Source: Acidobacteriota bacterium (GTDB lineage Bacteria; Acidobacteriota; UBA6911; RPQK01; JAJDTT01). From it: a stretch of 64,000 nt of DNA. The notes under the pieces are model-generated. The model ran no database searches. It saw only the letters and a list, made by a program, of their open reading frames with translations, and was not told where the DNA came from. The DNA is taken from contig CBDCLS010000004.1 in NCBI GenBank assembly GCA_965218775.1, forward strand, positions 983,890 through 1,047,889, written 5' to 3'. This document shows, in pieces, positions 1 to 9,294 of the stretch. Made by a program: the position numbers and the translations under genes. How positions within the stretch are numbered: position 1 is the stretch's first letter; each line of letters starts with the position of its first letter.

Positions 1-2140
1 TCGCCCGCTCCACCATGAAGGAGCTGTTCATCAGAAAGAGAAACTGCTGTGGAACGATGCTTGTGAGACGCTTGGAGACCGTCGCCGTCATCGAAGGGAA
101 ATCGAACAGACGCAAGAATTCGTCGGACTCGAACTCGTGGCCGATCCGGCTGACCTTGGCGTAAAGCGTGCGCCGCTTACTCTTGCTGATCTCCTCTACC
201 GGTGGGCCACCCCTTTCTGGTTCCAGCTCCGCAGTCACCTTCAACAGCGAGTCCCGCCACGATTCGACGTCCATTCGCCTGGGGTTCATTCGCCAGAGCA
301 GCTCGTTGTCGCCGTCGATGGCAAACGCACGACTCTGAAACCGGCTGCTCATCTGGTAGGTGGCCGAGGTCATGATCAGCCGGTGGAGAGACTTGAGTGA
401 CCACCCCGATTCGATGAAGGTTGCTGCCAACCAGTCGAGCATTTCCGGATGAGTCGGTTTCTGGCCGAGTGTCCCAAAGTTGCTGGGTGAGCGCACCAGG
501 GCTTTGCCGAAGTGGTGCATCCAAACCCGATTGACGATCACACGTGCGGTCAGAGGATTCTCCGGGTTGGCGACGGCCTCGGCCAACTCGAGTCGGCCGC
601 TTCCCTTGGTGAACGGTGGAGGATCCGCTCCAGTCACAATCCTCAGGAAGCGGCGAGGGGCCACGTCTCCTGGCTCTCTGAGGTTGCCGCGAAGCGCGAC
701 CGGCATGTCCTCGCTACCGGTGTCAGCCAGGACATGAGCAAAGTCGTACTTTGGCGGGGACGCCTTTTTCAACTCCTTGACCTGCTCCTCCCACCGTTTG
801 TGCTGCTGTTCCTCCTGGTCGGTCAGCTCGCGCCCTTCGTCCCTGGCCCCCTTCCTGAGGTCGCTTCTCTTCTGCTCGATGTCCTTGATCTTCTGCTGGT
901 GATCCTGGTAGACCTTGACCACGTCCTCGGGTGCCAGCGGCAGCTCACTCGCCTCCGTATTGTTGAAAATGCCGGCCAGTGAATAGTAGTCCCGCTGTGG
1001 AATCGGATCGAACTTATGATCATGGCAGCGGGCACAGGAAACCGTGATGGCCATCAACCCGCGGGTTAGAGTGTCTATCCGGTCGTCAAGGGTCTCTCCC
1101 TTTGCCTGGGCAACGCTATCCGGGTCGCCCCCGTCCGACCGGTAGTTGGGCCCCAGTGCGAAGAAACCGGTTGCGAATGCATCTCGTCCCCCACCGATCA
1201 GGTCACCGCTGATCTGTAGCTTGATAAACCGGTCGTACGGCAAGTCACGGTTCAAGGCTTCTACGACCCAATCCCGATATCGCCACGCCTGCGAGAGCTC
1301 CTGGTTGCGGCGGTCGAGGAATCCTCCATATCCGTCGCTGTAACGGGCAACATCGAGCCAATACCTTCCCCAACGCTCACCATAATGAGGGGAACCCAAC
1401 AATTGTCCGACAACTCGCTCAATCGCGTCCTGCCTATTCCGCTGGACGTCCTGGAGGAATTCATCAACCTGCTGAGGGGACGGCGGAAAACCAACCAGAT
1501 CGAGGTAGGCACGACGGACGATAACATTCGGCTCAGCCAAGCGGACAGGCTGGACACCAGCCGCGGCGAGCCTTGCGAGGACAAACCGGTCAATCCCATT
1601 GAAAATCCGGGATGCGCCGGGGAGATCTGTTGGAACCGGCTTCTGGATCGGGAGCCAAGCCCAATGCCCCCTCTGCAAAGCCGCCCAGTCGTAGCCTTTT
1701 TCTTTGGCCTGCGAGTCTGAAGCCACTCGCTTCTCGGGCCAGGGAGCCCCAATTTCGACCCACTTTACCAGGTCGGCGATCTCGCGCTCTTCGAGCCTGC
1801 CTCCGGGAGGCATCTTGAGTGACTGCCAGCGCACCGCTTCGACCAGAAGACTCTCTTCCGGCTTCTCGGGCACCAGGGCCGGCCCCCGGGAGCCCCCCTG
1901 CAGCAGACCTGCCAGACTGTCGAGCCTTAGTTCACCCTGTGGGGTCTTGGTTTCAGCGCTGTGGCACTCGAAGCAGCGCTCGGCAAGCAGCGGCCTCACT
2001 CGTCGCTCAAAGAACTCAATCTTGCTGCTCAGCCCGGTTTCTGAGGCCAGAGACAGACCTTCGGGAACCGAGGCCACACCCACGACACAGAGGGCTACAA
2101 AAGCCCGCCCCAAGGAACTCTTCCAACGACGCAAATACAT
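1..2140 (-). CDS. DUF1549/DUF1553 (PSCyt2/PSD1) domain protein, partial; the 3' end runs off the window start
   Basis: Minus-strand translation gives CARCHDHKFDPI (DUF1549 motif). The C-terminus has a DUF1553-like stretch (RLFDFPSMTATVSKRLTSIVPQQFLFLMNS). The start codon ATG is the complement of 2138-2140, upstream of a signal-peptide-like N-terminus (MYLRRWKSSLGRAFVALCVVGVA). Confidence 0.8.
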   Translation of the reverse strand, partial: MYLRRWKSSLGRAFVALCVVGVASVPEGLSLASETGLSSKIEFFERRVRPLLAERCFECHSAETKTPQGELRLDSLAGLLQGGSRGPALVPEKPEESLLVEAVRWQSLKMPPGGRLEEREIADLVKWVEIGAPWPEKRVASDSQAKEKGYDWAALQRGHWAWLPIQKPVPTDLPGASRIFNGIDRFVLARLAAAGVQPVRLAEPNVIVRRAYLDLVGFPPSPQQVDEFLQDVQRNRQDAIERVVGQLLGSPHYGERWGRYWLDVARYSDGYGGFLDRRNQELSQAWRYRDWVVEALNRDLPYDRFIKLQISGDLIGGGRDAFATGFFALGPNYRSDGGDPDSVAQAKGETLDDRIDTLTRGLMAITVSCARCHDHKFDPIPQRDYYSLAGIFNNTEASELPLAPEDVVKVYQDHQQKIKDIEQKRSDLRKGARDEGRELTDQEEQQHKRWEEQVKELKKASPPKYDFAHVLADTGSEDMPVALRGNLREPGDVAPRRFLRIVTGADPPPFTKGSGRLELAEAVANPENPLTARVIVNRVWMHHFGKALVRSPSNFGTLGQKPTHPEMLDWLAATFIESGWSLKSLHRLIMTSATYQMSSRFQSRAFAIDGDNELLWRMNPRRMDVESWRDSLLKVTAELEPERGGPPVEEISKSKRRTLYAKVSRIGHEFESDEFLRLFDFPSMTATVSKRLTSIVPQQFLFLMNSSFMVERA

Positions 2141-2339
2141 TTCCAGCCAGCCCGCGAGAATAACCGCTCTCTGAGCAGTCGCAGATCGTCAGCAAAGGGC
2201 CTCGGAGAATCCAGTTATCGAAAGGATACTCTCTTCGGTCCCTGACGGACGACCCATACAGATCGTGCTACCGAGAGTCCATCCTCAAGATAGTGAAGCT
2301 TGCGGGAGCCGCCTGTCAATGGTCCGGCGTAGGGATACC

Positions 2340-2615
2340 TAAGTGCTCCCTTCCATAAATACGATGATGTATGTGGCGAGCGCGACGGGTCGAGTTCGCG
2401 AAGCGACGACGAACTCGATGCTTTGTATCTTGGAGGAGGAGCGACAAAGAAATCGGCGCGTCCCGTCGCCACCCGTAGGGCAGATGGGGGTTGCGGACGA
2501 TCTCGGCGTTGGTCGTCGTCGAAGATGGCCAAGCATCGTCTTCCTCCTCCTGCCTTGATCTCGCCTCGCAAGCCCCATCTGCATACATCATCGTATTTAT
2601 GGAAGGGAGCACTTA
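2340..2615. repeat. MITE-like palindromic repeat, copy 1 (~276 bp). It has a conserved core and perfect ~34-bp terminal inverted repeats.
   Basis: The left end taagtgctcccttccataaatacgatgatgtatg is the reverse complement of the right end catacatcatcgtatttatggaagggagcactta. The core GGCGAGCGCGACGGGTCGAG...GGAGGAGGAGCGACAAAG...CTTCCTCCTCCTGCC is shared with the elements at 24624 and 48425. Confidence 0.7.
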
Positions 2616-2764
2616 GCACCCCGTCAGACTCGAGTGTTCAGGGGCAGAGGCGTTGTTTGCCCAACGTCGGACTGCTAGACTCTTATCCAGACCGGGCTCC
2701 AATCAGGGTCTCTCATGGGAATTGCCCCTCATAAACGTGTCTCCTTTGGCACCTGAGCCTAGAC

Positions 2765-3961
2765 ATGATTAGTCGACGTCAAGCCATCAGGGCCTTCGCT
2801 CAACTGCTGCTTTCTTCCCCGTTGGTGGCGGGACAAAAGCAGGCCGCTGAGACTGCGGGGGGCGCCCAAAATAGTGAAGAACAGCTTCACGATCTCATCA
2901 ATGTGTTCGACTTTGCCAAGCTGGCCCAGTCCAAGCTAGACCCTGTGGCCTGGGACTATATGGCCGAAGGATCGCAGGACGAAATATCCCTACGCGACAA
3001 TCGGAAGGCATTCGAGCGCATCATCATCAGGCCGAAGATTCTTACGGACGTCCACAAGATTGACCTCTCCACCAACCTTCTGGGCCAGAAGCTCGACTAC
3101 CCGATTTTCGTCTGCCCGGCCGGTGGTAAGAACTGTTTCTTCACCAATGGCGAAGAGCAGGTCGCAAAGGGAGCCGCCCATTCCAAAGCCCTGATGATCA
3201 CCAATGGTGGAATCGACGACTACTTGACCTCGGGCCGCGGACCGTCCAACTGGTGGCAGGTCACCACCGGGGGGCAGTTTCGTACCCGGAACACCATGCT
3301 CAACTTCGTGGAGAAGTTGGAAGACATGGGGGCGGCAGGCATCTGCTTCACAGTGGACAATATGCACGTTTCCCATCGGGAGAGGAGCATTCGCAACCGT
3401 CTGGTGCGGCGCTGGTGCGAAACCGGGGTCCCGCGGGATGCCGAGGGCAACCTGATCTACAAGAAGGAGGACCGACCCTGGCGGACGGGTCGCTATCCCG
3501 AGCGCCCCTTCCCCACCCCCACCTGGGAGACTGTACGTCAATTGCGGGACATGACCGATCTGTCAATCGTGATCAAGGGCGTTCTCACCGCTGAGGACAC
3601 TGAGAAGTGTGTAGAGTACGGCATGTCGGCCGTCGTGGTATCCAACCACGGGGCTCGGCAGCAGGACCACCTGGGGGGCACGATCGAGGCTCTACCCGAG
3701 TGTGTCCGAGCGGCAAAGGGCAGGATTCCGGTTCTGGTGGACGGCGGCTTCCGGCGGGGAACGGATGTGTTGAAGGCATTAGCCCTGGGCGCTACCGCCG
3801 TGGGAGTGGCGCGCCCCTACCTTTGGGGCCTGACCTGTTTCGGACAGGAAGGGGTTTCCCGAGTGCTGGAGCTGCTGCGGGTGGAACTGGCACTGGATAT
3901 GGGCATGGCCGGAGTTGCCAGGATTTCTGACATCGATGGGACACTGACTCGGATCCGCTAG
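2765..3961 (+). CDS. FMN-dependent alpha-hydroxy-acid dehydrogenase/oxidase family (lactate or glycolate oxidase-like), with a Tat-type signal
   Basis: Motifs VVVSNHGARQQDHLGG and IPVLVDGGFRRGTDVLKALALGA are present. The N-terminus MISRRQAIRAF has a twin-arginine pattern. Confidence 0.8.
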   Translation: MISRRQAIRAFAQLLLSSPLVAGQKQAAETAGGAQNSEEQLHDLINVFDFAKLAQSKLDPVAWDYMAEGSQDEISLRDNRKAFERIIIRPKILTDVHKIDLSTNLLGQKLDYPIFVCPAGGKNCFFTNGEEQVAKGAAHSKALMITNGGIDDYLTSGRGPSNWWQVTTGGQFRTRNTMLNFVEKLEDMGAAGICFTVDNMHVSHRERSIRNRLVRRWCETGVPRDAEGNLIYKKEDRPWRTGRYPERPFPTPTWETVRQLRDMTDLSIVIKGVLTAEDTEKCVEYGMSAVVVSNHGARQQDHLGGTIEALPECVRAAKGRIPVLVDGGFRRGTDVLKALALGATAVGVARPYLWGLTCFGQEGVSRVLELLRVELALDMGMAGVARISDIDGTLTRIR

Positions 3962-3966
3962 AACTC

Positions 3967-4734
3967 ATGTTGAATCGCAGGGAGCTGTTGGAACTGCTGC
4001 TGGCCGGTGCGCTGACCCCCAAGGATTACCTCGTTCGGAGGCCCCGAGTAGAAGCACTATGGAAATCCCCGGATTCGTACCCCAATGCCCTCGAGGCAAC
4101 GGACGCTGGCTTATGGGTCGGGGAACAGCTCACCAACATCGCCTACCTGCTCGATTGGGAAAAGGGCAAGGTACTTCGGAGAGTCCCGACCGAGTCCACC
4201 AACACCAGCGGAATGGCCTATGGGAATGGCTTCCTCTGGATGGCTGCCAACGGCCCTGCCCTGAGGCGCGAACCACGGCCTTCCGACTCCAAAACCGGAA
4301 TGGTACTCAAGGTTGATCCAGGCACGGGCAAGACGCTTGCCCGCTACCCCATCCCGGGAGGAGGAGGGGTCCACGGTCTCACCTGGGCTGAAAACTCCCT
4401 CTGGATCACGACGCTGAGACGAAAAAGCCTGACCCGGGTCGATGCCGGTTTCAAGGAACTCCACAGCATTCCAGTGACCCTGGGACGAGCCCACGGGCTA
4501 GCCTGGGACCGGGATACGATCTGGTGCATGTTCTCCAATGATCGTGTGATTCATAGACTGGATGCCAGTGACGGCCGCATTCTCGAAGCCATCCAGCTGG
4601 GTTCATCTGATCCGGATCCCCACGGCATGACTCTCCACAAAGGTACGTTCTATTACACCGACGCAGGTATCGCACCCGGAGGTGGAGACAATGGGAGTCG
4701 CAACGCGGGATACATCTGCCGACTCCATTTATGA
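3967..4734 (+). CDS. secreted beta-propeller protein, possibly glutaminyl-cyclase-like (tentative)
   Basis: It has a Tat-like N-terminus (MLNRRELLELLLAG). It also has repeated WxxxD/HGL blade-like motifs (HGLTWAENSLW, HGLAWDRDTIW). The length (~255 aa) fits a 5-bladed propeller. Confidence 0.4.
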   Translation: MLNRRELLELLLAGALTPKDYLVRRPRVEALWKSPDSYPNALEATDAGLWVGEQLTNIAYLLDWEKGKVLRRVPTESTNTSGMAYGNGFLWMAANGPALRREPRPSDSKTGMVLKVDPGTGKTLARYPIPGGGGVHGLTWAENSLWITTLRRKSLTRVDAGFKELHSIPVTLGRAHGLAWDRDTIWCMFSNDRVIHRLDASDGRILEAIQLGSSDPDPHGMTLHKGTFYYTDAGIAPGGGDNGSRNAGYICRLHL

Positions 4735-5285
4735 AGAGCCCACTCTGGGTACTGACGCTGACCCTGCTGTCATCGACCTCCGGGGACGAGGAAGGCAGGA
4801 TCCTGCGTCCTCAAGACGGCTCGGCGCTCGCCTCGGAAGAGATCAGCATCGTGGCGACCGGTACGGGGGCGAGGCTGGAGCTGGACGGTCAGCAGATCCC
4901 TGCCCAGGAGCCTTTCCCCAACGTCTTCCACGCCAAGCTGAAACCCTCTCCGGGAGAACACCGGTTGGCATTGATCTGGGAGGGGGGACGGCGTGAGATC
5001 CGATTCTTCATGGGAGAAAACGCGCCTGCGACCTTCCGTCCCTTTAAGCAGCATCCTCCCGTGGCCACGGAATGCACCCAGTGTCACAGTCTGAGCCGGC
5101 GTGGGCGATTTCGCTTCAAGGGAGGGTGCTTCGACTGTCATGACAAGGAAACGTTCGTCGGACCCCACGAACACGCTCCCCACATCTTGGAAGACTGCGG
5201 AAGCTGCCACAACGCCCACGGATCGACCTCAGCCTCCCACTTGCTTTTGCCGCGGCAGCAGGCCTGTCGACTCTGCCACAACTGA
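4731..5285 (+). CDS. small tetrahaem c-type cytochrome
   Basis: There are four CxxCH motifs (CTQCH, CFDCH, CGSCH, CRLCH). It has a signal peptide. It overlaps the upstream gene by 4 bp, which suggests an operon. Confidence 0.7.
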   Translation: MKSPLWVLTLTLLSSTSGDEEGRILRPQDGSALASEEISIVATGTGARLELDGQQIPAQEPFPNVFHAKLKPSPGEHRLALIWEGGRREIRFFMGENAPATFRPFKQHPPVATECTQCHSLSRRGRFRFKGGCFDCHDKETFVGPHEHAPHILEDCGSCHNAHGSTSASHLLLPRQQACRLCHN

Positions 5286-5298
5286 TTAGGAGCGCTAC

Positions 5299-6153
5299 AT
5301 GGCCGCAGAAAACCGAATCCCGGACAACCTGGTGACAACCGACTGGGCCTCGCTCAACACTGCCCAGCGAATCAAACATCTCGAGATTGAAGGGTACGTC
5401 CTGGTTCCGGATCTACTGTCTCGGGATCAGATAAAGATCATCAAGAAAGAGCTCGATCGACTTCCCACGACCCCAACCGACTACAGCGAGAACCAGCGAG
5501 GATACTCCCACGTCCAGTGGACCGAATCCCCGAATGCGATTGACGTGATTGCCCTTCCAGCGATGGTGGACTTCCTGTCCGCGCTGTTCGGAGACGAAAT
5601 CCTTTGTACTTCCTGCGTCTTCGCCGTTTCCAGGCCGGGGCATCCCGGCATCGCCATCCATACCGATTCCCAGCCCTACGGATCGGCGATATTGGGCTTG
5701 CAGGCGAGTGCCCCCAAGCTGCTGCGCGTCCTTTATTACCTCGACGACCTCACCCCTGAGCGATCGCCCCTGAAGATGATTCCGCACTCCCATTTGTCAC
5801 TACATGCGGACGCCAACCCCTACAACCGATTCCTCAGTCACCCCGAAGAAGTGATGGTGACCTGTAAAGCAGGGGCAGCGGCCATCATCAACCAGCAGGT
5901 CTTTCACGGCAACTACCCCAATCGCAGTCAGCAGGACCGACGCATGCTGGCCGTGGCATATCGGCCGGCCTGGGCGGGTCCGGTCTATGAAGTACCGGAT
6001 TGGGATCAAGAGAAGGTAGCCGCTCTACCTGATCACATCAGGCTCTTCTTCAAGAGCCTCAATACGCGGAAGGTCGACTTCAACGTAGGGAATCGACCTC
6101 CGGATATGGCGGAGGAGGCGCCGGGGATCAATCCCAGCCGCTGGGACGTATGA
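5299..6153 (+). CDS. phytanoyl-CoA dioxygenase (PhyH) family Fe(II)/2-oxoglutarate oxygenase
   Basis: An HTD...H-type facial triad region is present (IAIHTDSQPY ... FHGNYPNRS). The overall layout fits PhyH. Confidence 0.65.
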   Translation: MAAENRIPDNLVTTDWASLNTAQRIKHLEIEGYVLVPDLLSRDQIKIIKKELDRLPTTPTDYSENQRGYSHVQWTESPNAIDVIALPAMVDFLSALFGDEILCTSCVFAVSRPGHPGIAIHTDSQPYGSAILGLQASAPKLLRVLYYLDDLTPERSPLKMIPHSHLSLHADANPYNRFLSHPEEVMVTCKAGAAAIINQQVFHGNYPNRSQQDRRMLAVAYRPAWAGPVYEVPDWDQEKVAALPDHIRLFFKSLNTRKVDFNVGNRPPDMAEEAPGINPSRWDV

Positions 6154-6429
6154 ATAGGAGCGAGTTGTTTGGCTGGTGTGCTTTGGGATAGGTAATCGCG
6201 TGTCTTATGACTGCCTTTAGATCTTGGATGGCAACGCGTCGGCGGTTTGATTGATTTGCTAGACCTCTGCCCGGCAGCGGACTACTCCGGATTCTTTCCG
6301 AGATCGGCTTTCTCGCCATGGCGCACCAGGAAAACCAGCAGAGGGTCATTTGTCGACGCGGAAGGATTGGGTGTTGATGAACAGAGGATCGGCGTGATCG
6401 TTAAGAGTAAGGTGGCAACCGCGGACGCC

Positions 6430-7047
6430 CTATTCTTTGAGAACCATATCGATACACATTACAGCTGCAAGGATTAGCTGACGGGCTACATTGTCACGGG
6501 GCACAGATTCAGCAATCTCAAGGACATAGTTGTCTGCACTGGTAAAAAGTTCCTTGCCAATCCCTGCCCATTTCTTCGTCACATGAGCCAATTCAGTCCC
6601 ATCTGCCATGAACCGGAAATCCCACCCGGTCCACTTGCCTTTGAGTTGGCAAACAGGTCTCTCGCCTGTATCAAAGACACTAAAAGCACCACCTATCGAA
6701 AAAAACTTCTGCTTGAACCCGCCTATACGTTGATCATTTTCGTCAAGAACGTTCACTTCAGACAGAAAAACGGAGATTCCTCTCGTAATACGAACGAGCT
6801 GATGCCCCTCAGGAGTTCTGATCTGGATATCAAAAGGTGTCATCCTTTTGAAGTCCGTGAACCTGAGAATCTTGGTGAAAATCCCCAATCGTTCTTCACG
6901 ACACTCCATGGTAATGTGGCCCGTTTGCGGATCATAAATGTCGTAATTATTAGCTGCCTTGAACATTCCAACATGCTCTTTGACAAGGAACGTATTCCTA
7001 TTCAATAAGTCGTGCACTCTGTCACCCTTTCTTCCGCTTCTTCCCAA
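6430..7047 (-). CDS. LURP-one-related / scramblase-like (DUF567, tubby C-terminal-like fold) protein
   Basis: The translation is LOR-family-like. The gene sits in a ~47% GC segment within a ~62% GC background. Confidence 0.55.
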   Translation of the reverse strand: MGRSGRKGDRVHDLLNRNTFLVKEHVGMFKAANNYDIYDPQTGHITMECREERLGIFTKILRFTDFKRMTPFDIQIRTPEGHQLVRITRGISVFLSEVNVLDENDQRIGGFKQKFFSIGGAFSVFDTGERPVCQLKGKWTGWDFRFMADGTELAHVTKKWAGIGKELFTSADNYVLEIAESVPRDNVARQLILAAVMCIDMVLKE

Positions 7048-7105: not shown

Positions 7106-8062
7106 CTACCATGGCATGGATCGCTTGCTGTAGCGGCGTCCCTTCTCCGCGGCCTCCTGATTCCCCGAGCCGATCATGACCCCCTCGTCAATCATTCGTT
7201 CGACCGTGGCCGGGGTCACTCCGTTCAGGAAGGGGATCTTGACGGCTTTGCAGGCGGAGAAGACGCGCTCACGAACCTCCTTCATGACCTTTGTGTAGTC
7301 GTCGCCCTTTCGACCCGGAAGCCCCCAGGACATGCCCATGTCGCTCGGACCCCACTCGGCGAAACCTATGCCCGGAACCCTCACGCTCGACTCGGCATTC
7401 TGGAGCGCGTGGCGATCTTCGATCTTTAAGCCCAGAAGAATCTCACCCTCGGGATTCAACGGCCAGGGATCGGCGACCTGCAGGTACTTGTCGGTGTCGA
7501 TCCCCCAGATCTGGCTGGCAAAACCTTGTCCACCGCTGCCTCTCAAACCTTCCCTGAGGCCGTTTCCCACACGGTCTTTGTGGAAGGGGTATCGAGCCGC
7601 TTCTACGAATACTCGGACCGCGTCCGGGGTACGGGCGTGGCAGAGCAAGATGCCATGAGCCCCGGCCGCCAGGACCTGCTGCACCATCCAATAGTTGGCT
7701 TTCATCGTAGCTTCGTCGATTCCACCTACCGGCAGCGTGCAGATGACCGCTGGAGTTCGATGTCCACTACGGGTGGGGCCCCCATCTACCAGACCCTGCA
7801 TGAATCTCCGGAGGAGAGTCACATCGTAGGCTCCGTGCTCCATCTCGTAATTGATGTAATCGGCCCAGGTCTGCGCCATCCGCTTGCCTTCCTCGTAGCC
7901 GCCGTGGGCACCCGTGTAGTAGATCGGCTGCCCTTGCTCCAGGAGCTCGATCGCCTTGTTGACTCTTTTCGCCTGGGCGGATCCACCAGAGGGATTGACA
8001 GTCGAAAGGCCAGCGGCGTAGGTTGAAACAATCAGAACCAATAGCAGTGTCGGCTTTTTCAT
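7106..8062 (-). CDS. HpcH/HpaI aldolase / citrate-lyase beta-like family protein, secreted
   Basis: It resembles the HpcH/HpaI family. The likely true start is MKKPTLLLVLIV (ATG is the complement of 8060-8062) with an AGGAAG ribosome-binding site. The track ORF is extended 5'. Confidence 0.65.
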   Translation of the reverse strand: MKKPTLLLVLIVSTYAAGLSTVNPSGGSAQAKRVNKAIELLEQGQPIYYTGAHGGYEEGKRMAQTWADYINYEMEHGAYDVTLLRRFMQGLVDGGPTRSGHRTPAVICTLPVGGIDEATMKANYWMVQQVLAAGAHGILLCHARTPDAVRVFVEAARYPFHKDRVGNGLREGLRGSGGQGFASQIWGIDTDKYLQVADPWPLNPEGEILLGLKIEDRHALQNAESSVRVPGIGFAEWGPSDMGMSWGLPGRKGDDYTKVMKEVRERVFSACKAVKIPFLNGVTPATVERMIDEGVMIGSGNQEAAEKGRRYSKRSMPW

Positions 8063-8247: not shown

Positions 8248-9294
8248 ATGAAGCATCTCCAGCAACTCAGGATCTTCATCTTGATCAACATCTTTGTCGC
8301 CACGTTGTTCCAGGGTCCCTTGACGGCCTCGGACGTGAAAGTTCTAGTTTCCGCTGGTCAGAAGAAACAGCTGGCGGAATTGGAACGCACCCTACCCAAC
8401 CTGGAACTGGTCGCCGCGAAACCGGATCAAATACTCAGCGTGATCGGCGACTGCGACGCAATCATCGGTCTCGGCTACGGCGGCGATCGTTCGCGGCAGA
8501 TCATTCAGGCAGGAAAGAAGCTGAGGTGGGTCCACAGCACTAGCGCAGGCGTGGAAAAAATTGCCTGGATACCCGAACTGAAGGACAGCGACATCCTTCT
8601 GACCAACGCCAAAATCTTCCAGGGCCCTGAGATTGCCGATCATGCCTTCGGCCTGCTGTTGACACTTACGCGTAACCTGAAACACTACAACCGGCGGATG
8701 GATGAAGGCTGGGAAAGGGTTACCCCAGAACTGCCCATCATAGAACTGCGACGTAAGACCATGCTGATCGTTGGCCTTGGGGGGATTGGTACCCAGATTG
8801 CCCAGCGGGCTTCCGCCTTCGACATGCGAGTCCTAGCCGTCGATCCCAAGGATATTCCCCTGATGCACATCGTAGAACGCGTCGTCAGGCCTGACCAGCT
8901 GCACGAGGTGCTTCCTCAGGCCGACGTCGTAGTGAGTTCGGTCCCACATACAGCTGCATCCGAGGGCATGTTTGGCAAGAAGGAATTTGCCCTGGTGAAA
9001 GATGGGGTCTATTTCGTCAACGTCTCGCGCGGCAAGGTGGTGCAGACAGAGGCGCTAGTGGAGGCCTTGAGATCGGGTAAGGTCCGGGCCGCGGGCCTGG
9101 ATGTCACCAACCCCGAGCCCTTACCCACAGGCCATCCACTCTGGAAGATGAACAACGTCATCATTACACCCCACATTGCGACGGTCTCGGTTCAATCTCG
9201 CACCCGGCTTCTAGAACTGATTCGCAGCAACATCGAGCGTTTCGTCACTGGAAAACCGATGCTGAACGTCGTCAACAAGGCGGCGGGGTTCTAA
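8248..9294 (+). CDS. D-isomer-specific 2-hydroxyacid dehydrogenase family protein (NAD-binding)
   Basis: A Rossmann motif LIVGLGGIGTQIAQRA is present. The start ATG at 8248 is preceded by AAGGAG. It has a signal-like N-terminus. Confidence 0.75.
   Translation: MKHLQQLRIFILINIFVATLFQGPLTASDVKVLVSAGQKKQLAELERTLPNLELVAAKPDQILSVIGDCDAIIGLGYGGDRSRQIIQAGKKLRWVHSTSAGVEKIAWIPELKDSDILLTNAKIFQGPEIADHAFGLLLTLTRNLKHYNRRMDEGWERVTPELPIIELRRKTMLIVGLGGIGTQIAQRASAFDMRVLAVDPKDIPLMHIVERVVRPDQLHEVLPQADVVVSSVPHTAASEGMFGKKEFALVKDGVYFVNVSRGKVVQTEALVEALRSGKVRAAGLDVTNPEPLPTGHPLWKMNNVIITPHIATVSVQSRTRLLELIRSNIERFVTGKPMLNVVNKAAGF

What the first reader, a model, noticed from the sequence alone, without database searches (positions are those of the whole stretch)
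2765..6153. Secreted FMN-dependent hydroxy-acid dehydrogenase, propeller, tetrahaem cytochrome c and PhyH dioxygenase in one apparent operon
Four co-oriented genes with 4-13 bp spacings or overlaps are all signal-peptide bearing. The first has a Tat motif, which fits export of a folded flavoprotein. The arrangement resembles a split, periplasmic version of a flavocytochrome, with an FMN dehydrogenase donating electrons to a dedicated multihaem cytochrome c, plus an Fe/2OG oxygenase. A periplasmic alpha-hydroxy-acid:cytochrome c oxidoreductase module of this composition is not a textbook system.
Basis: inference. Interest (0 to 1): 0.5.

Follow-up and report, generated by a model that had tools for sequence, protein, structure and literature searches.

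The report
Exported FMN dehydrogenase, propeller, tetrahaem cytochrome module
An Acidobacteria genome encodes a conserved, uncharacterised trio of exported proteins (an FMN-dependent 2-hydroxy-acid dehydrogenase, a five-bladed propeller and a small four-haem cytochrome c) that probably oxidises an organic acid outside the cytoplasm and feeds the electrons to haem; the fourth gene, a PhyH dioxygenase, is a cytoplasmic, lineage-specific passenger.

Summary
The four co-oriented, tightly spaced genes are real. They are FMN_dh (2765-3961), an unassigned 255-aa protein (3967-4734), a 4xCXXCH cytochrome (4731-5285) and PhyH (5299-6153).

The claim that all four carry signal peptides is wrong for PhyH. 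The dehydrogenase and the propeller both have twin-arginine N-termini, kept in 55/55 and 23/23 relatives. The cytochrome has a Sec-type signal.

In 80 Acidobacteriota genomes seeded on the propeller:
- FMN_dh lies directly upstream in 55.
- The cytochrome lies directly downstream in 43.
- All three are present in 34.
- PhyH is present in only 3 near-identical relatives.

So the conserved unit is dehydrogenase plus propeller, usually with the cytochrome.

The dehydrogenase keeps the catalytic His/Arg/Arg/Lys/Asp/Tyr set. It has Thr (never Tyr) where GOX has Tyr129, and it forms a discrete clade at most 43% identical to other FMN_dh proteins. The propeller model is closest to plant/bacterial-type glutaminyl cyclase but shows no sequence membership.

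Other Tat-type FMN_dh clades sit beside other multihaem cytochromes or carry a CXXCH in loop 4. That supports flavin-to-haem-c electron transfer. Substrate and propeller role are unknown.

Verdict: a new variant of periplasmic flavoprotein:cytochrome c dehydrogenases, of moderate interest.

The parts
2114..2764 (.). Divergent intergenic region between the minus-strand PSCyt1/PSCyt2/PSD1 gene and the dehydrogenase; presumed promoter region.
   Evidence: The public gene calls put the start of the 775-aa PSCyt gene at about window 2113. That gene runs off the window start, so it is not in the ORF list. No sigma-70-like site and no Rfam family was found. The role is inferred only.
2765..3961 (+). 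FMN-dependent 2-hydroxy-acid dehydrogenase/oxidase family protein, 398 aa. Residues 1-23 or so are a twin-arginine signal; the catalytic domain starts near residue 44.
   Evidence: PF01070 scores 324.7 bits. Residues 37-44 align to the first residues of the solved oxidases. RR is present in 55/55 orthologues. Y65, D198, R205, K271, H295 and R298 are invariant, T167 replaces the canonical Tyr, and the clade motif PAGGKNCF is conserved.
3967..4734 (+). Five-bladed beta-propeller, 255 aa, with a twin-arginine N-terminus (MLNRRELLELLLAGAL); function unknown.
   Evidence: It has 399 homologues of about 255 aa, and R4 and R5 are invariant. The AF2 model has pLDDT 90.4. The best Foldseek matches are glutaminyl cyclases 3mbr, 2iwa, 3nol and 3nok, with TM 0.66-0.76 at 11-18% identity. 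No Pfam family reaches threshold. N40, S81, H136, H176 and H219 each sit at the start of the first strand of one blade.
4731..5285 (+). Tetrahaem cytochrome c, 184 aa: Sec-type signal (MKSPLWVLTLTLLSSTSG), an Ig/FN3-like beta-sandwich (about residues 22-100), then a four-CXXCH domain.
   Evidence: Paired_CXXCH_1 scores 33 bits against a cut-off of 20.6. It has 279 homologues. The four CXXCH and H108, H146, H148 and H163 are invariant. The C-terminal half aligns to MtrA (6r2q_A, E 2.8e-7). The N-domain model resembles FN3/Ig modules. It overlaps the propeller stop by 4 bp.
5299..6153 (+). PhyH-family Fe(II)/2-oxoglutarate dioxygenase, 284 aa, without a signal peptide. Co-transcribed here in all likelihood, but not part of the conserved module.
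   Evidence: PF05721 scores 60.4 bits. H121-x-D123 and H203 are present. An AGGAG lies 8 nt before the ATG. It is found in only L002, L003 and L005 among 80 related loci.
7106..8062 (-). HpcH/HpaI-type aldolase-like protein with a Sec-type signal (MKKPTLLLVLIVSTYAAGL...AQA). A neighbour of the module only in the closest lineages.
   Evidence: Pfam and NCBIfam hits are weak. It is present near the module in 13 loci.
8248..9294 (+). D-isomer-specific 2-hydroxy-acid dehydrogenase with an apparent Sec-type signal (MKHLQQLRIFILINIFVATLFQG). A neighbour only in the closest lineages.
   Evidence: PF02826 gives E 1.8e-57. It is present near the module in 16 loci.

Best explanation
This is a periplasmic electron-donating module of Acidobacteriota, with these proposed steps.
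- The FMN-loaded dehydrogenase is folded in the cytoplasm and exported by the Tat pathway. This step is inferred from a signal conserved in all orthologues.
- In the periplasm it oxidises an (S)-2-hydroxy acid, or a closely related alpha-hydroxy carboxylate, to the 2-oxo acid. It uses the conserved His295 base and the Arg205/Arg298/Tyr65 carboxylate clamp. This step is inferred from conserved residues; the substrate is unknown.
- The reduced flavin passes electrons to the co-encoded, Sec-exported, bis-His tetrahaem cytochrome c, which relays them to the respiratory chain. This step is inferred from gene linkage.
- The Tat-exported five-bladed propeller is the most constant partner. Its role is open: it may be a metal-binding accessory enzyme that makes or processes the substrate (for example a lactone or ester hydrolase), or it may be a structural subunit.
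- PhyH is a cytoplasmic gene that joined the transcription unit only in this lineage.
For: Gene order and spacing are as described.

Export signals:
- RR is conserved in 55/55 dehydrogenase orthologues and 23/23 propeller homologues.
- The catalytic domain begins only after residue 37-44 when aligned to solved enzymes.

Active site: six of seven canonical residues are invariant.

Linkage in 80 genomes: FMN_dh is directly upstream of the propeller in 55, the cytochrome is directly downstream in 43, and all three are present in 34.

The cytochrome:
- It is a real gene with four invariant CXXCH and four further invariant His.
- Its family is small (279 homologues).
- Cytochrome-seeded look-ups gave FMN_dh-propeller-cytochrome in L082/83 and FMN_dh-cytochrome in L084/85 and L089. 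Only L090 had the cytochrome alone.

Independent recurrence of the FMN_dh/c-haem link:
- Tat-type FMN_dh P0369 and P0370 (40-43% identical) are each preceded by a five-CXXCH Cytochrome_C7-type protein.
- 21 of 38 Tat-type relatives carry a CXXCH (one of them CXXCK) in loop 4, against 1 of 94 non-Tat relatives.

TonB-type outer-membrane proteins lie directly upstream in L084, L089 and L091, which fits a substrate imported into the periplasm.

Precedents:
- PauLDH is a characterised FMN-dependent 2-hydroxy-acid dehydrogenase with a predicted Tat signal (PMC9670274).
- Yeast flavocytochrome b2 is an FMN_dh that reduces cytochrome c in an extracytoplasmic compartment (established knowledge).
Against: - No experiment and no dedicated signal-peptide predictor was available.
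- 19 of 55 FMN_dh-propeller loci have no cytochrome, and no CXXCH ORF lies downstream. The cytochrome therefore cannot be the obligatory acceptor.
- Two other Tat-type FMN_dh look-ups (P0437, P0384) had no cytochrome neighbour.
- The residue equivalent to GOX Tyr129 / LOX Tyr146 / b2 Tyr254 is Thr, Glu or Asn and never Tyr in 55 orthologues. Chemistry or substrate may therefore differ from the classical enzymes.
- The propeller also occurs with the cytochrome but without FMN_dh in 7 loci. It also occurs behind DUF1501 genes (L052, L055, L063, L071), preceded in L052 and L055 by a PSCyt-type gene. It is not exclusive to this dehydrogenase.
- The direction of electron flow is not established.
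Confidence: 0.55

Rival explanations
1. The exported flavoenzyme and the propeller form the functional unit, and they use O2 (making H2O2) or a general periplasmic acceptor. The tetrahaem cytochrome would then be an optional add-on with another role, such as a redox buffer or peroxide handling.
For: The FMN_dh-propeller pair stands without any cytochrome in 19 of 55 loci. The closest solved relatives by score are oxidases: L-lactate oxidase, glycolate oxidase and HAO1. Public annotation calls the clade 'alpha-hydroxy acid oxidase'.
Against: The cytochrome start overlaps the propeller stop. The cytochrome family is small and mostly next to this FMN_dh clade, including loci without the propeller. 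Two other clades of Tat-type FMN_dh are also linked to c-haem. The annotations are automatic names, not tests.
Confidence: 0.2
2. The clade does not act on simple 2-hydroxy acids. The Tyr-to-Thr change and the cyclase-like propeller would point to chemistry on another alpha-substituted carbonyl compound or a peptide-derived substrate. The analogy is MftD, an FMN_dh-family enzyme that oxidatively deaminates a peptide-derived intermediate.
For: T167 replaces the canonical Tyr in the whole clade, and the loop motif PAGGKNCF is clade-specific. The clade is discrete: the next representatives are at most 43% identical. The best NCBIfam hit by E-value is MftD. The propeller fold is closest to glutaminyl cyclase.
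Against: The MftD score (184.9) is far below its cut-off (470.85) and is close to the LldD and LOX scores. Both carboxylate-binding Arg, the His base, Lys, Asp and Tyr65 are invariant. No precursor-peptide or radical-SAM genes are conserved nearby. The propeller has no significant sequence match to glutaminyl cyclase.
Confidence: 0.1
3. One reading: all four genes, including the PhyH dioxygenase, form one secreted functional module.
For: In this genome PhyH follows the cytochrome after 13 bp on the same strand and has its own AGGAG ribosome-binding site.
Against: PhyH has no signal peptide. It is present in 3 of 80 related loci, all at least 90% identical relatives; in L005 it lies 1.9 kb further away, and it is absent from L004, whose propeller is 91% identical. 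The slot after the cytochrome holds different genes in other lineages.
Confidence: 0.07
4. Electron flow runs the other way. The cytochrome would deliver electrons to the flavoenzyme, which would act as a periplasmic terminal reductase, as in the Shewanella flavocytochromes c (fumarate, urocanate and acrylate reductases). The propeller would be the 'coupling enzyme' that makes the acceptor.
For: Bis-His tetrahaem cytochromes are typically low-potential (established knowledge; ligands inferred). Shewanella operons pair periplasmic flavocytochrome c reductases with an enzyme that produces their acceptor (abstracts listed).
Against: Those reductases are FAD enzymes of the fumarate-reductase family, not PF01070. 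FMN_dh-family enzymes are known as oxidising enzymes, and the 2-oxo-acid/2-hydroxy-acid couple is a poor respiratory acceptor (established knowledge). The neighbours are catabolic: aldolases, lactonase-type amidohydrolases, an MFS transporter and TonB receptors.
Confidence: 0.05
5. The RR N-termini are not export signals, and the dehydrogenase and propeller are cytoplasmic.
For: No predictor or experiment was available. The h-region of the window's propeller is short and contains a Glu.
Against: RR is kept in 55/55 and 23/23 sequences while the rest of the N-terminus diverges. It is followed by an uncharged stretch and often by A-x-A (AFAQD, ALAQE). The extension precedes the first residue of the solved cytoplasmic or peroxisomal homologues. 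The partner cytochrome c must be periplasmic to receive haem (established knowledge).
Confidence: 0.03

Closest known systems
[quoted passage not shown]
   Same: It has an FMN_dh (PF01070) catalytic domain, about 204 bits to the window protein. It works outside the cytoplasm/matrix and passes electrons through haem to cytochrome c.
   Different: Its haem is a fused b5-type domain. Here there is no b5 domain: the N-terminus is a Tat signal and the haem partner is a separate tetrahaem c-type protein. b2 has Tyr254 where this clade has Thr.
PauLDH of Photorhabdus australis (PMC9670274)
   Same: It is an FMN-dependent 2-hydroxy-acid dehydrogenase with a predicted Tat signal peptide, characterised in vitro and not lactate-specific.
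   Different: It comes from a gammaproteobacterium. No partner cytochrome or propeller is reported in that paper, and its sequence relationship to this clade was not tested here.
Two-subunit periplasmic flavoprotein:cytochrome c dehydrogenases (flavocytochrome c sulfide dehydrogenase, p-cresol methylhydroxylase, gluconate 2-dehydrogenase)
   Same: The logic is the same: a periplasmic flavoprotein dehydrogenase encoded next to a dedicated c-type cytochrome that accepts its electrons. In gluconate 2-dehydrogenase the substrate is a 2-hydroxy acid.
   Different: Those flavoproteins are FAD enzymes of unrelated folds, and their cytochromes are mono-, di- or trihaem class I types. None has a propeller partner. 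This comparison rests on established knowledge and was not tested here.
Plant/bacterial-type glutaminyl cyclase (PDB 3mbr, 2iwa, 3nol, 3nok)
   Same: It shares the five-bladed beta-propeller of about 230-250 residues and gives the best structural matches, with TM 0.66-0.76.
   Different: Identity is 11-18%. There is no PF05096 hit, and the profile search gives E 0.31 to papaya cyclase. The conserved ring N40/S81/H136/H176/H219 is specific to this family, and the cyclase catalytic residues were not compared.
Cytochrome c3 / MtrA-DmsE-type paired-CXXCH multihaem cytochromes
   Same: It has CXXCH spacing and extra His consistent with bis-His haems. Its C-terminal pair aligns to MtrA (E 2.8e-7) and matches Paired_CXXCH_1.
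   Different: It has only four haems, preceded by an Ig/FN3-like domain. Scores against the decahaem family models are far below cut-off.

Membership tests
FMN-dependent alpha-hydroxy-acid oxidase/dehydrogenase family (PF01070) | Match to the family profile above the curated cut-off, over the whole TIM barrel | tested here: met
   324.7 bits against a cut-off of 24.9; residues 54-393 cover profile positions 1-346 of 350.
FMN-dependent alpha-hydroxy-acid oxidase/dehydrogenase family (PF01070) | Catalytic base His with its Asp, the Lys at flavin N1/O2, two carboxylate-binding Arg and the N-terminal Tyr (LOX H265, D174, K241, R181, R268, Y40) | tested here: met
   H295, D198, K271, R205, R298 and Y65 were mapped through the HMMER alignment to A. 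viridans LOX. The LOX residue numbers are from my own knowledge. All six are invariant in 55 orthologues.
FMN-dependent alpha-hydroxy-acid oxidase/dehydrogenase family (PF01070) | Second active-site Tyr that contacts the substrate oxygen (GOX Y129, LOX Y146, b2 Y254) | tested here: not met
   The position is T167 in the window. Across 55 orthologues it is T in 48, E in 4, N in 2 and a gap in 1, never Y. It is Y in 112 of 132 wider relatives.
FMN-dependent alpha-hydroxy-acid oxidase/dehydrogenase family (PF01070) | FMN binding and 2-hydroxy-acid oxidation activity | not testable with these tools
   Needs purified protein.
Named subfamilies: LldD, L-lactate oxidase, MftD (NCBIfam) | Score at or above the curated equivalog cut-off | tested here: not met
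   LldD 156 against 550; L-lactate oxidase 161.6 against 645.5; MftD 184.9 against 470.85; PRK11197 178.4 against 376.
Flavocytochrome b2 | Cytochrome b5-type haem domain fused N-terminal to the FMN_dh domain | tested here: not met
   No second Pfam domain was found. Residues 1-44 are a Tat-type signal plus linker.
Tat-exported proteins | Twin-arginine motif in the n-region, followed by a moderately hydrophobic h-region and a short-side-chain cleavage region | tested here: met
   Dehydrogenase: RR in 55/55 orthologues, and 52/55 fit xRRx[AFSLTV][LFIVAMKG]. Propeller: R4 and R5 invariant in 23/23. Hydropathy maxima are 1.59 and 1.68. Motif-level test only.
Tat-exported proteins | Tat-dependent translocation and signal cleavage | not testable with these tools
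   No TatP/SignalP tool and no experiment were available.
Plant/bacterial-type glutaminyl cyclase (PF05096) | Five-bladed beta-propeller fold | tested here: met
   Foldseek top six hits are glutaminyl cyclases, E 2.4e-12 to 4.2e-10, TM 0.66-0.76. The model has pLDDT 90.4.
Plant/bacterial-type glutaminyl cyclase (PF05096) | Significant sequence match to the family | tested here: not met
   No PF05096 hit at E up to 0.01. The family profile against PDB gives E 0.31 to papaya cyclase.
Plant/bacterial-type glutaminyl cyclase (PF05096) | Conservation of the cyclase catalytic residues | not tested
   No reliable residue-level alignment to a cyclase was obtained.
Virginiamycin B lyase / streptogramin lyase (the name given by some sources) | Seven-bladed propeller with a full-length family match | tested here: not met
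   Only partial matches of about 70-100 residues at E about 1e-4. Foldseek TM is 0.44-0.54. There are five repeat motifs in about 230 mature residues.
Multihaem cytochrome c (c3 / paired-CXXCH type) | Several CXXCH haem-attachment motifs with further conserved His as distal ligands, and an export signal | tested here: met
   Four CXXCH plus H108, H146, H148 and H163 are invariant in 21 sequences. Paired_CXXCH_1 scores 33 against 20.6. The N-terminus MKSPLWVLTLTLLSSTSG has a hydropathy maximum of 1.55. Haem attachment itself is not testable here.
PhyH / Fe(II)-2-oxoglutarate dioxygenases | Family profile above cut-off and the H-x-D...H iron triad | tested here: met
   60.4 bits against 22. H121-T-D123 and H203 are present; the triad was assigned by inspection.

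The most novel reading that the evidence does not exclude
The trio would be a periplasmic respiratory entry point built from parts not previously seen together.
- The propeller, with a ring of three invariant His plus Asn and Ser at the mouth of its central channel, would be a Tat-exported metallo-hydrolase. It would open an imported lactone or ester to an (S)-2-hydroxy acid.
- The Thr167-type FMN enzyme would oxidise that acid and reduce its own tetrahaem cytochrome.
- This would be an Acidobacterial counterpart of the proteobacterial lactonase / gluconate 2-dehydrogenase route.

More broadly, Tat-type FMN_dh enzymes would form an unrecognised class of periplasmic flavocytochromes c. It would include single-chain forms in which a c-haem is attached to loop 4 of a protein exported already folded.
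Probability: 0.15. Interest if true: 0.7.

Novelty: new variant of a known kind. Interest (0 to 1): 0.5.

Why it matters
Acidobacteriota are among the most abundant soil bacteria, and much of their carbon metabolism is inferred from annotation alone. This module is annotated only as 'alpha-hydroxy acid oxidase', 'hypothetical protein' and 'CXXCH cytochrome', or not called at all. Yet relatives of its propeller were found in 267 stretches of species-representative genomes.

If it oxidises organic acids in the periplasm and feeds a dedicated cytochrome, it would be an unrecognised route by which these organisms take electrons from plant- or polysaccharide-derived acids without importing them. 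It would also add an FMN-based member to the periplasmic flavoprotein:cytochrome c dehydrogenases.

The propeller partner and the Tyr-to-Thr active site give concrete handles for biochemistry.

Tried and rejected
- Rfam and tRNA scans of the whole window found nothing.
- Sigma-70 promoter and intrinsic terminator scans of 2000-6600 gave 0 promoter-like sites and 4 terminator-like sites against 3.4 expected, so they were uninformative.
- The apparent lack of ORFs in 1-2700 is not a feature. A 775-aa minus-strand PSCyt gene runs off the window start.
- Sequence-only searches for the propeller gave sub-threshold or partial hits to YncE, Vgb lyase and DUF6923. I did not use them to name it.
- The AF2 model of the cytochrome is confident only for the N-terminal sandwich. 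The haem domain has pLDDT 32-54, so the fold search says nothing about the haem core.
- A search for conserved neighbours beyond the three genes found only lineage-specific sets (L082):
  - an HpcH aldolase with a D-2-hydroxy-acid dehydrogenase;
  - Amidohydro_2;
  - DmpFG-like aldolase/dehydrogenase with an HpcH aldolase;
  - an esterase;
  - an MFS transporter;
  - in L082, rhaM and MR_MLE.
  These hint at sugar-acid or deoxy-sugar breakdown but do not fix a substrate.
- I looked for a link between the residue at positions 166/167 and presence of the cytochrome and found none.
- Five literature searches found no description of the module.
- I considered and rejected filing the dehydrogenase as LldD, lactate oxidase or MftD, because all scores are far below cut-off.
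- My first greedy ORF picker was unreliable in this GC-rich DNA. The counts reported rest on tblastn with the window proteins instead.

Full report
**What is in the sequence**

Window 2765-6153 holds four + strand ORFs:
- 2765-3961, 398 aa
- 3967-4734, 255 aa
- 4731-5285, 184 aa
- 5299-6153, 284 aa

They are separated by a 5-bp gap, a 4-bp ATGA overlap and a 13-bp gap. Pfam assigns the first to FMN_dh (E 8.5e-97), the third to Paired_CXXCH_1 (E 4.8e-8; four CXXCH) and the fourth to PhyH (E 3.9e-16). The second has only a sub-threshold DUF6923 hit. No curated NCBIfam equivalog is reached by any of them.

The window corresponds to a 1.9-Mb metagenome contig. Its relatives are Acidobacteriota, mostly Bryobacterales MAGs. 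Upstream and divergent lie a PSCyt1/PSCyt2/PSD1 gene and a DUF1501 gene. The PSCyt gene runs off the window start, which explains the seemingly ORF-free first 2.1 kb.

**Signal peptides**

The dehydrogenase begins MISRRQAIRAFAQLLLSSPLVAG. Residues 37-44 align with the first residues of solved oxidases and dehydrogenases, so the first 40 or so residues are an extension. Among 55 orthologues recovered from genomes, all have a twin arginine in the first 20 residues, and 52 fit a Tat-like pattern. The remainder of the leader varies, and many end in A-x-A.

The propeller begins MLNRRELLELLLAGAL, and R4 and R5 are invariant in 23 diverse homologues.

The cytochrome begins MKSPLWVLTLTLLSSTSG, a Sec-type leader, as expected for a protein that receives haem in the periplasm.

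PhyH begins MAAENRIPDNLVTTDW. Its maximal 12-residue hydropathy is 0.38, against 1.55-1.68 for the others, and the ORF cannot be extended upstream. So three of the four proteins, not four, carry export signals. No signal-peptide predictor was available, so these are motif and conservation arguments.

**Co-conservation**

I built an alignment of propeller homologues (A1) and used it to fetch 80 loci from species-representative genomes; 267 stretches matched in all. tblastn with the window proteins gave these counts:

| Arrangement | Loci |
|---|---|
| FMN_dh directly upstream of the propeller | 55 |
| Cytochrome directly downstream of the propeller | 43 |
| All three genes | 34 |
| FMN_dh-propeller without cytochrome | 19 |
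| Propeller-cytochrome without adjacent FMN_dh | 7 |
| Propeller alone | 12 |
| Not decidable at contig ends | the remaining 8 |

- In the 19 loci without a cytochrome, no CXXCH-bearing ORF follows the propeller.
- PhyH occurs only in L002, L003 and L005, all at least 90% identical relatives. It is displaced by 1.9 kb in L005 and is absent from L004, whose propeller is 91% identical.
- Beyond the three genes, neighbours are lineage-specific.

Look-ups seeded on the cytochrome gave four distinct contexts:
- FMN_dh-propeller-cytochrome in L082/83.
- FMN_dh-cytochrome without the propeller in L084/85 and in L089. Both are preceded by a TonB-type outer-membrane protein.
- The cytochrome alone in L090.

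The FMN_dh in L084 belongs to the same clade (WWQFTT, PTGGKN). The conserved core is therefore the dehydrogenase with the propeller, the cytochrome or both. PhyH is not part of it.

**The dehydrogenase**

I mapped residues through the alignment to A. viridans L-lactate oxidase. The enzyme keeps Y65, D198, R205, K271, H295 and R298, and all are invariant in 55 orthologues.

The position of LOX Tyr146 / GOX Tyr129 / b2 Tyr254 is Thr167. Across the orthologues it is T, E or N and never Tyr. In 132 wider relatives it is Tyr in 112. The loop that normally reads A-P-x-A...H-P-x-G-E reads C/D-P-A-G-G-K-N-C-F and is nearly invariant.

At 50% clustering the clade has one full-length representative (607 bits). 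After it, scores fall to about 350 bits and identity to at most 43%. Public names are generic: 'alpha-hydroxy acid oxidase', 'alpha-hydroxy-acid oxidizing protein'. So this is a discrete, uncharacterised subfamily. It keeps the machinery for alpha-hydroxy-carboxylate oxidation, but one substrate-contacting residue is changed. I would not assume lactate, glycolate or mandelate as the substrate.

**The propeller**

- The AF2 model is confident (pLDDT 90.4).
- Its best structural matches are the five-bladed plant/bacterial-type glutaminyl cyclases (TM 0.66-0.76, 11-18% identity). Seven-bladed Vgb lyase and YncE score lower.
- Sequence tests for membership fail. There is no PF05096 hit, and the profile search gives E 0.31 to papaya cyclase.
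- Five repeats share a motif whose second residue is N40, S81, H136, H176 and H219. All five are invariant, and each lies at the start of the first strand of a blade.

By the usual propeller geometry, these five residues would ring one mouth of the central channel. That suggests a metal or ligand site, which would also make sense of Tat export. This is an inference, because I could not inspect coordinates.

The propeller also occurs directly behind DUF1501 genes in L052, L055, L063 and L071, preceded in L052 and L055 by a PSCyt-type gene. It is therefore a reusable periplasmic partner and not exclusive to this dehydrogenase.

**The cytochrome**

The + strand ORF is a real gene. It has 279 homologues, named 'CXXCH cytochrome family' or 'cytochrome c3 family'. 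Four CXXCH and four further His (H108, H146, H148, H163) are invariant, which fits four bis-His haems. The C-terminal pair aligns to MtrA (E 2.8e-7). Residues 22-100 or so model as an Ig/FN3-like sandwich.

The public contig carries a 13-bp insertion in the leader region of this gene. The insertion breaks the frame there and probably explains why the public gene caller chose an antisense ORF. The window copy is intact and agrees with the orthologues.

**Does the flavoenzyme feed the cytochrome?**

This is an inference from linkage, but the linkage recurs independently.
- Two other Tat-type FMN_dh representatives (P0369 and P0370, 40-43% identical, with the normal WFQLY motif) are each preceded by a different multihaem protein, of Cytochrome_C7 type with five CXXCH.
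- Of 132 nearest representatives, 38 have an RRxFL-type leader. Of these 38, 21 carry a CXXCH (one of them CXXCK) inside loop 4 of the barrel, against 1 of 94 without the leader.
- One such protein, P0375, has no cytochrome neighbour.

Against a universal rule, P0437 and P0384 have neither a cytochrome neighbour nor the motif, and a third of the FMN_dh-propeller loci lack the cytochrome.

**Context and substrate**

Neighbours hint at sugar-acid or deoxy-sugar breakdown:
- HpcH/HpaI-type aldolases.
- Amidohydro_2, the family that includes sugar-lactone hydrolases.
- MR_MLE dehydratases, rhaM and an MFS transporter (L082).
- A DUF1537-type kinase plus PdxA, a fucosidase and a TonB receptor (L084).
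- GH88 (L086).

None of these is conserved across the family, so the substrate stays open.

**Comparison with what is known**

- By function, the nearest analogue is flavocytochrome b2: an FMN_dh that reduces cytochrome c via its own haem. Here the haem carrier is a separate c-type tetrahaem protein and export is by Tat.
- By logic, it resembles the two-subunit periplasmic flavoprotein:cytochrome c dehydrogenases, which use unrelated FAD folds.
- An exported FMN-dependent 2-hydroxy-acid dehydrogenase has been characterised in vitro: PauLDH, with a predicted Tat signal and a preference for S-2-hydroxyvalerate (PMC9670274). Export alone is therefore not new.
- I found no paper describing the dehydrogenase-propeller-cytochrome module. 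The library does not hold most subscription-journal papers, so this is not proof of absence.

**Verdict**

The conserved, probably periplasmic unit is the FMN dehydrogenase plus propeller, usually with a dedicated tetrahaem cytochrome. PhyH is a cytoplasmic, lineage-specific passenger.

| Statement | My estimate |
|---|---|
| The dehydrogenase and propeller are exported | about 0.85-0.9 |
| The cytochrome is the physiological acceptor where present | about 0.6 |
| Whole best explanation | 0.55 |

The propeller's role is open. This is a new variant of a known kind of system, of moderate interest (0.5).

Noticed in passing
Relatives of window 2765-3961 (P0371, P0372, P0374, P0375, P0376, P0383, P0391, P0395, P0399, P0401 and others; L088:5001-6212): Among 132 nearest 50%-cluster representatives of the dehydrogenase, 38 have an RRxFL-type Tat leader (consensus RRxFLxFLAASPL). 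Of those 38, 21 carry a CXXCH (one CXXCK) inside loop 4 of the TIM barrel, against 1 of 94 without the leader. This looks like a class of Tat-exported FMN enzymes with an embedded c-haem motif. It raises the question of how haem would be attached to a protein exported already folded.
   Followed up: partly
window 4784-4800 versus L001:12028-12041: The public copy of this contig has 13 extra bases (GGATCCTCCCGTGGCC...) in the leader region of the cytochrome gene. The insertion breaks the frame, and the public gene caller called a 167-aa antisense ORF instead. The window copy is intact and agrees with the orthologues. Further 1- and 2-bp indels at window ~10060 and ~10785 split or merge the GH32-like ORF.
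   Followed up: yes
window 7106-8062 (-) and 8248-9294 (+): An HpcH/HpaI-type aldolase-like protein and an NAD-type D-2-hydroxy-acid dehydrogenase both start with Sec-type signal peptides (MKKPTLLLVLIVSTYAAGL...AQA; MKHLQQLRIFILINIFVATLFQG). Export of normally cytoplasmic, nucleotide-dependent enzymes is unusual. Both genes accompany the module in 13-16 of the closest loci.
   Followed up: partly
L052:2010-6750, L055:2004-6753, L063:4677-6774, L071:4616-6777; window 1-2113 (-): Paralogues of the propeller lie directly behind DUF1501 genes that have a Tat leader. In L052 and L055 these are preceded by an 848-aa PSCyt-type gene carrying CXXCH. In the window, a PSCyt1/PSCyt2/PSD1 plus DUF1501 pair lies divergently upstream of the module. 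This may be a functional link between the propeller family and the abundant, uncharacterised PSCyt/DUF1501 pairs, or it may be chance, given how many such pairs these genomes hold.
   Followed up: partly
L035:3433-8388: One Bryobacterales genome has the module duplicated in tandem as FMN_dh, FMN_dh, propeller, propeller, cytochrome.
   Followed up: no
L084:432-3770, L089:1454-4717, L091:330-3767: In three unrelated contexts, a large CarboxypepD_reg/OMP_b-brl_4 (TonB-dependent-receptor-like) outer-membrane protein lies directly upstream of a Tat-type FMN_dh, on the same strand. This suggests the substrate is imported across the outer membrane.
   Followed up: no
L012:4962-5645 and L092:3369-4004: An isochorismatase-family ORF sits between the FMN_dh and the propeller in L012; this assignment rests on the N-terminal sequence only. 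A gene with a Pfam Isochorismatase hit lies directly upstream of a distant Tat-type FMN_dh in L092.
   Followed up: no
window 6430-7047 (-): A bacterial member of the Scramblase/LOR family (PF03803, E 7e-17) lies in a stretch of lower G+C (0.50 against about 0.59). It is convergent with PhyH and is present in only one of the close relatives.
   Followed up: no
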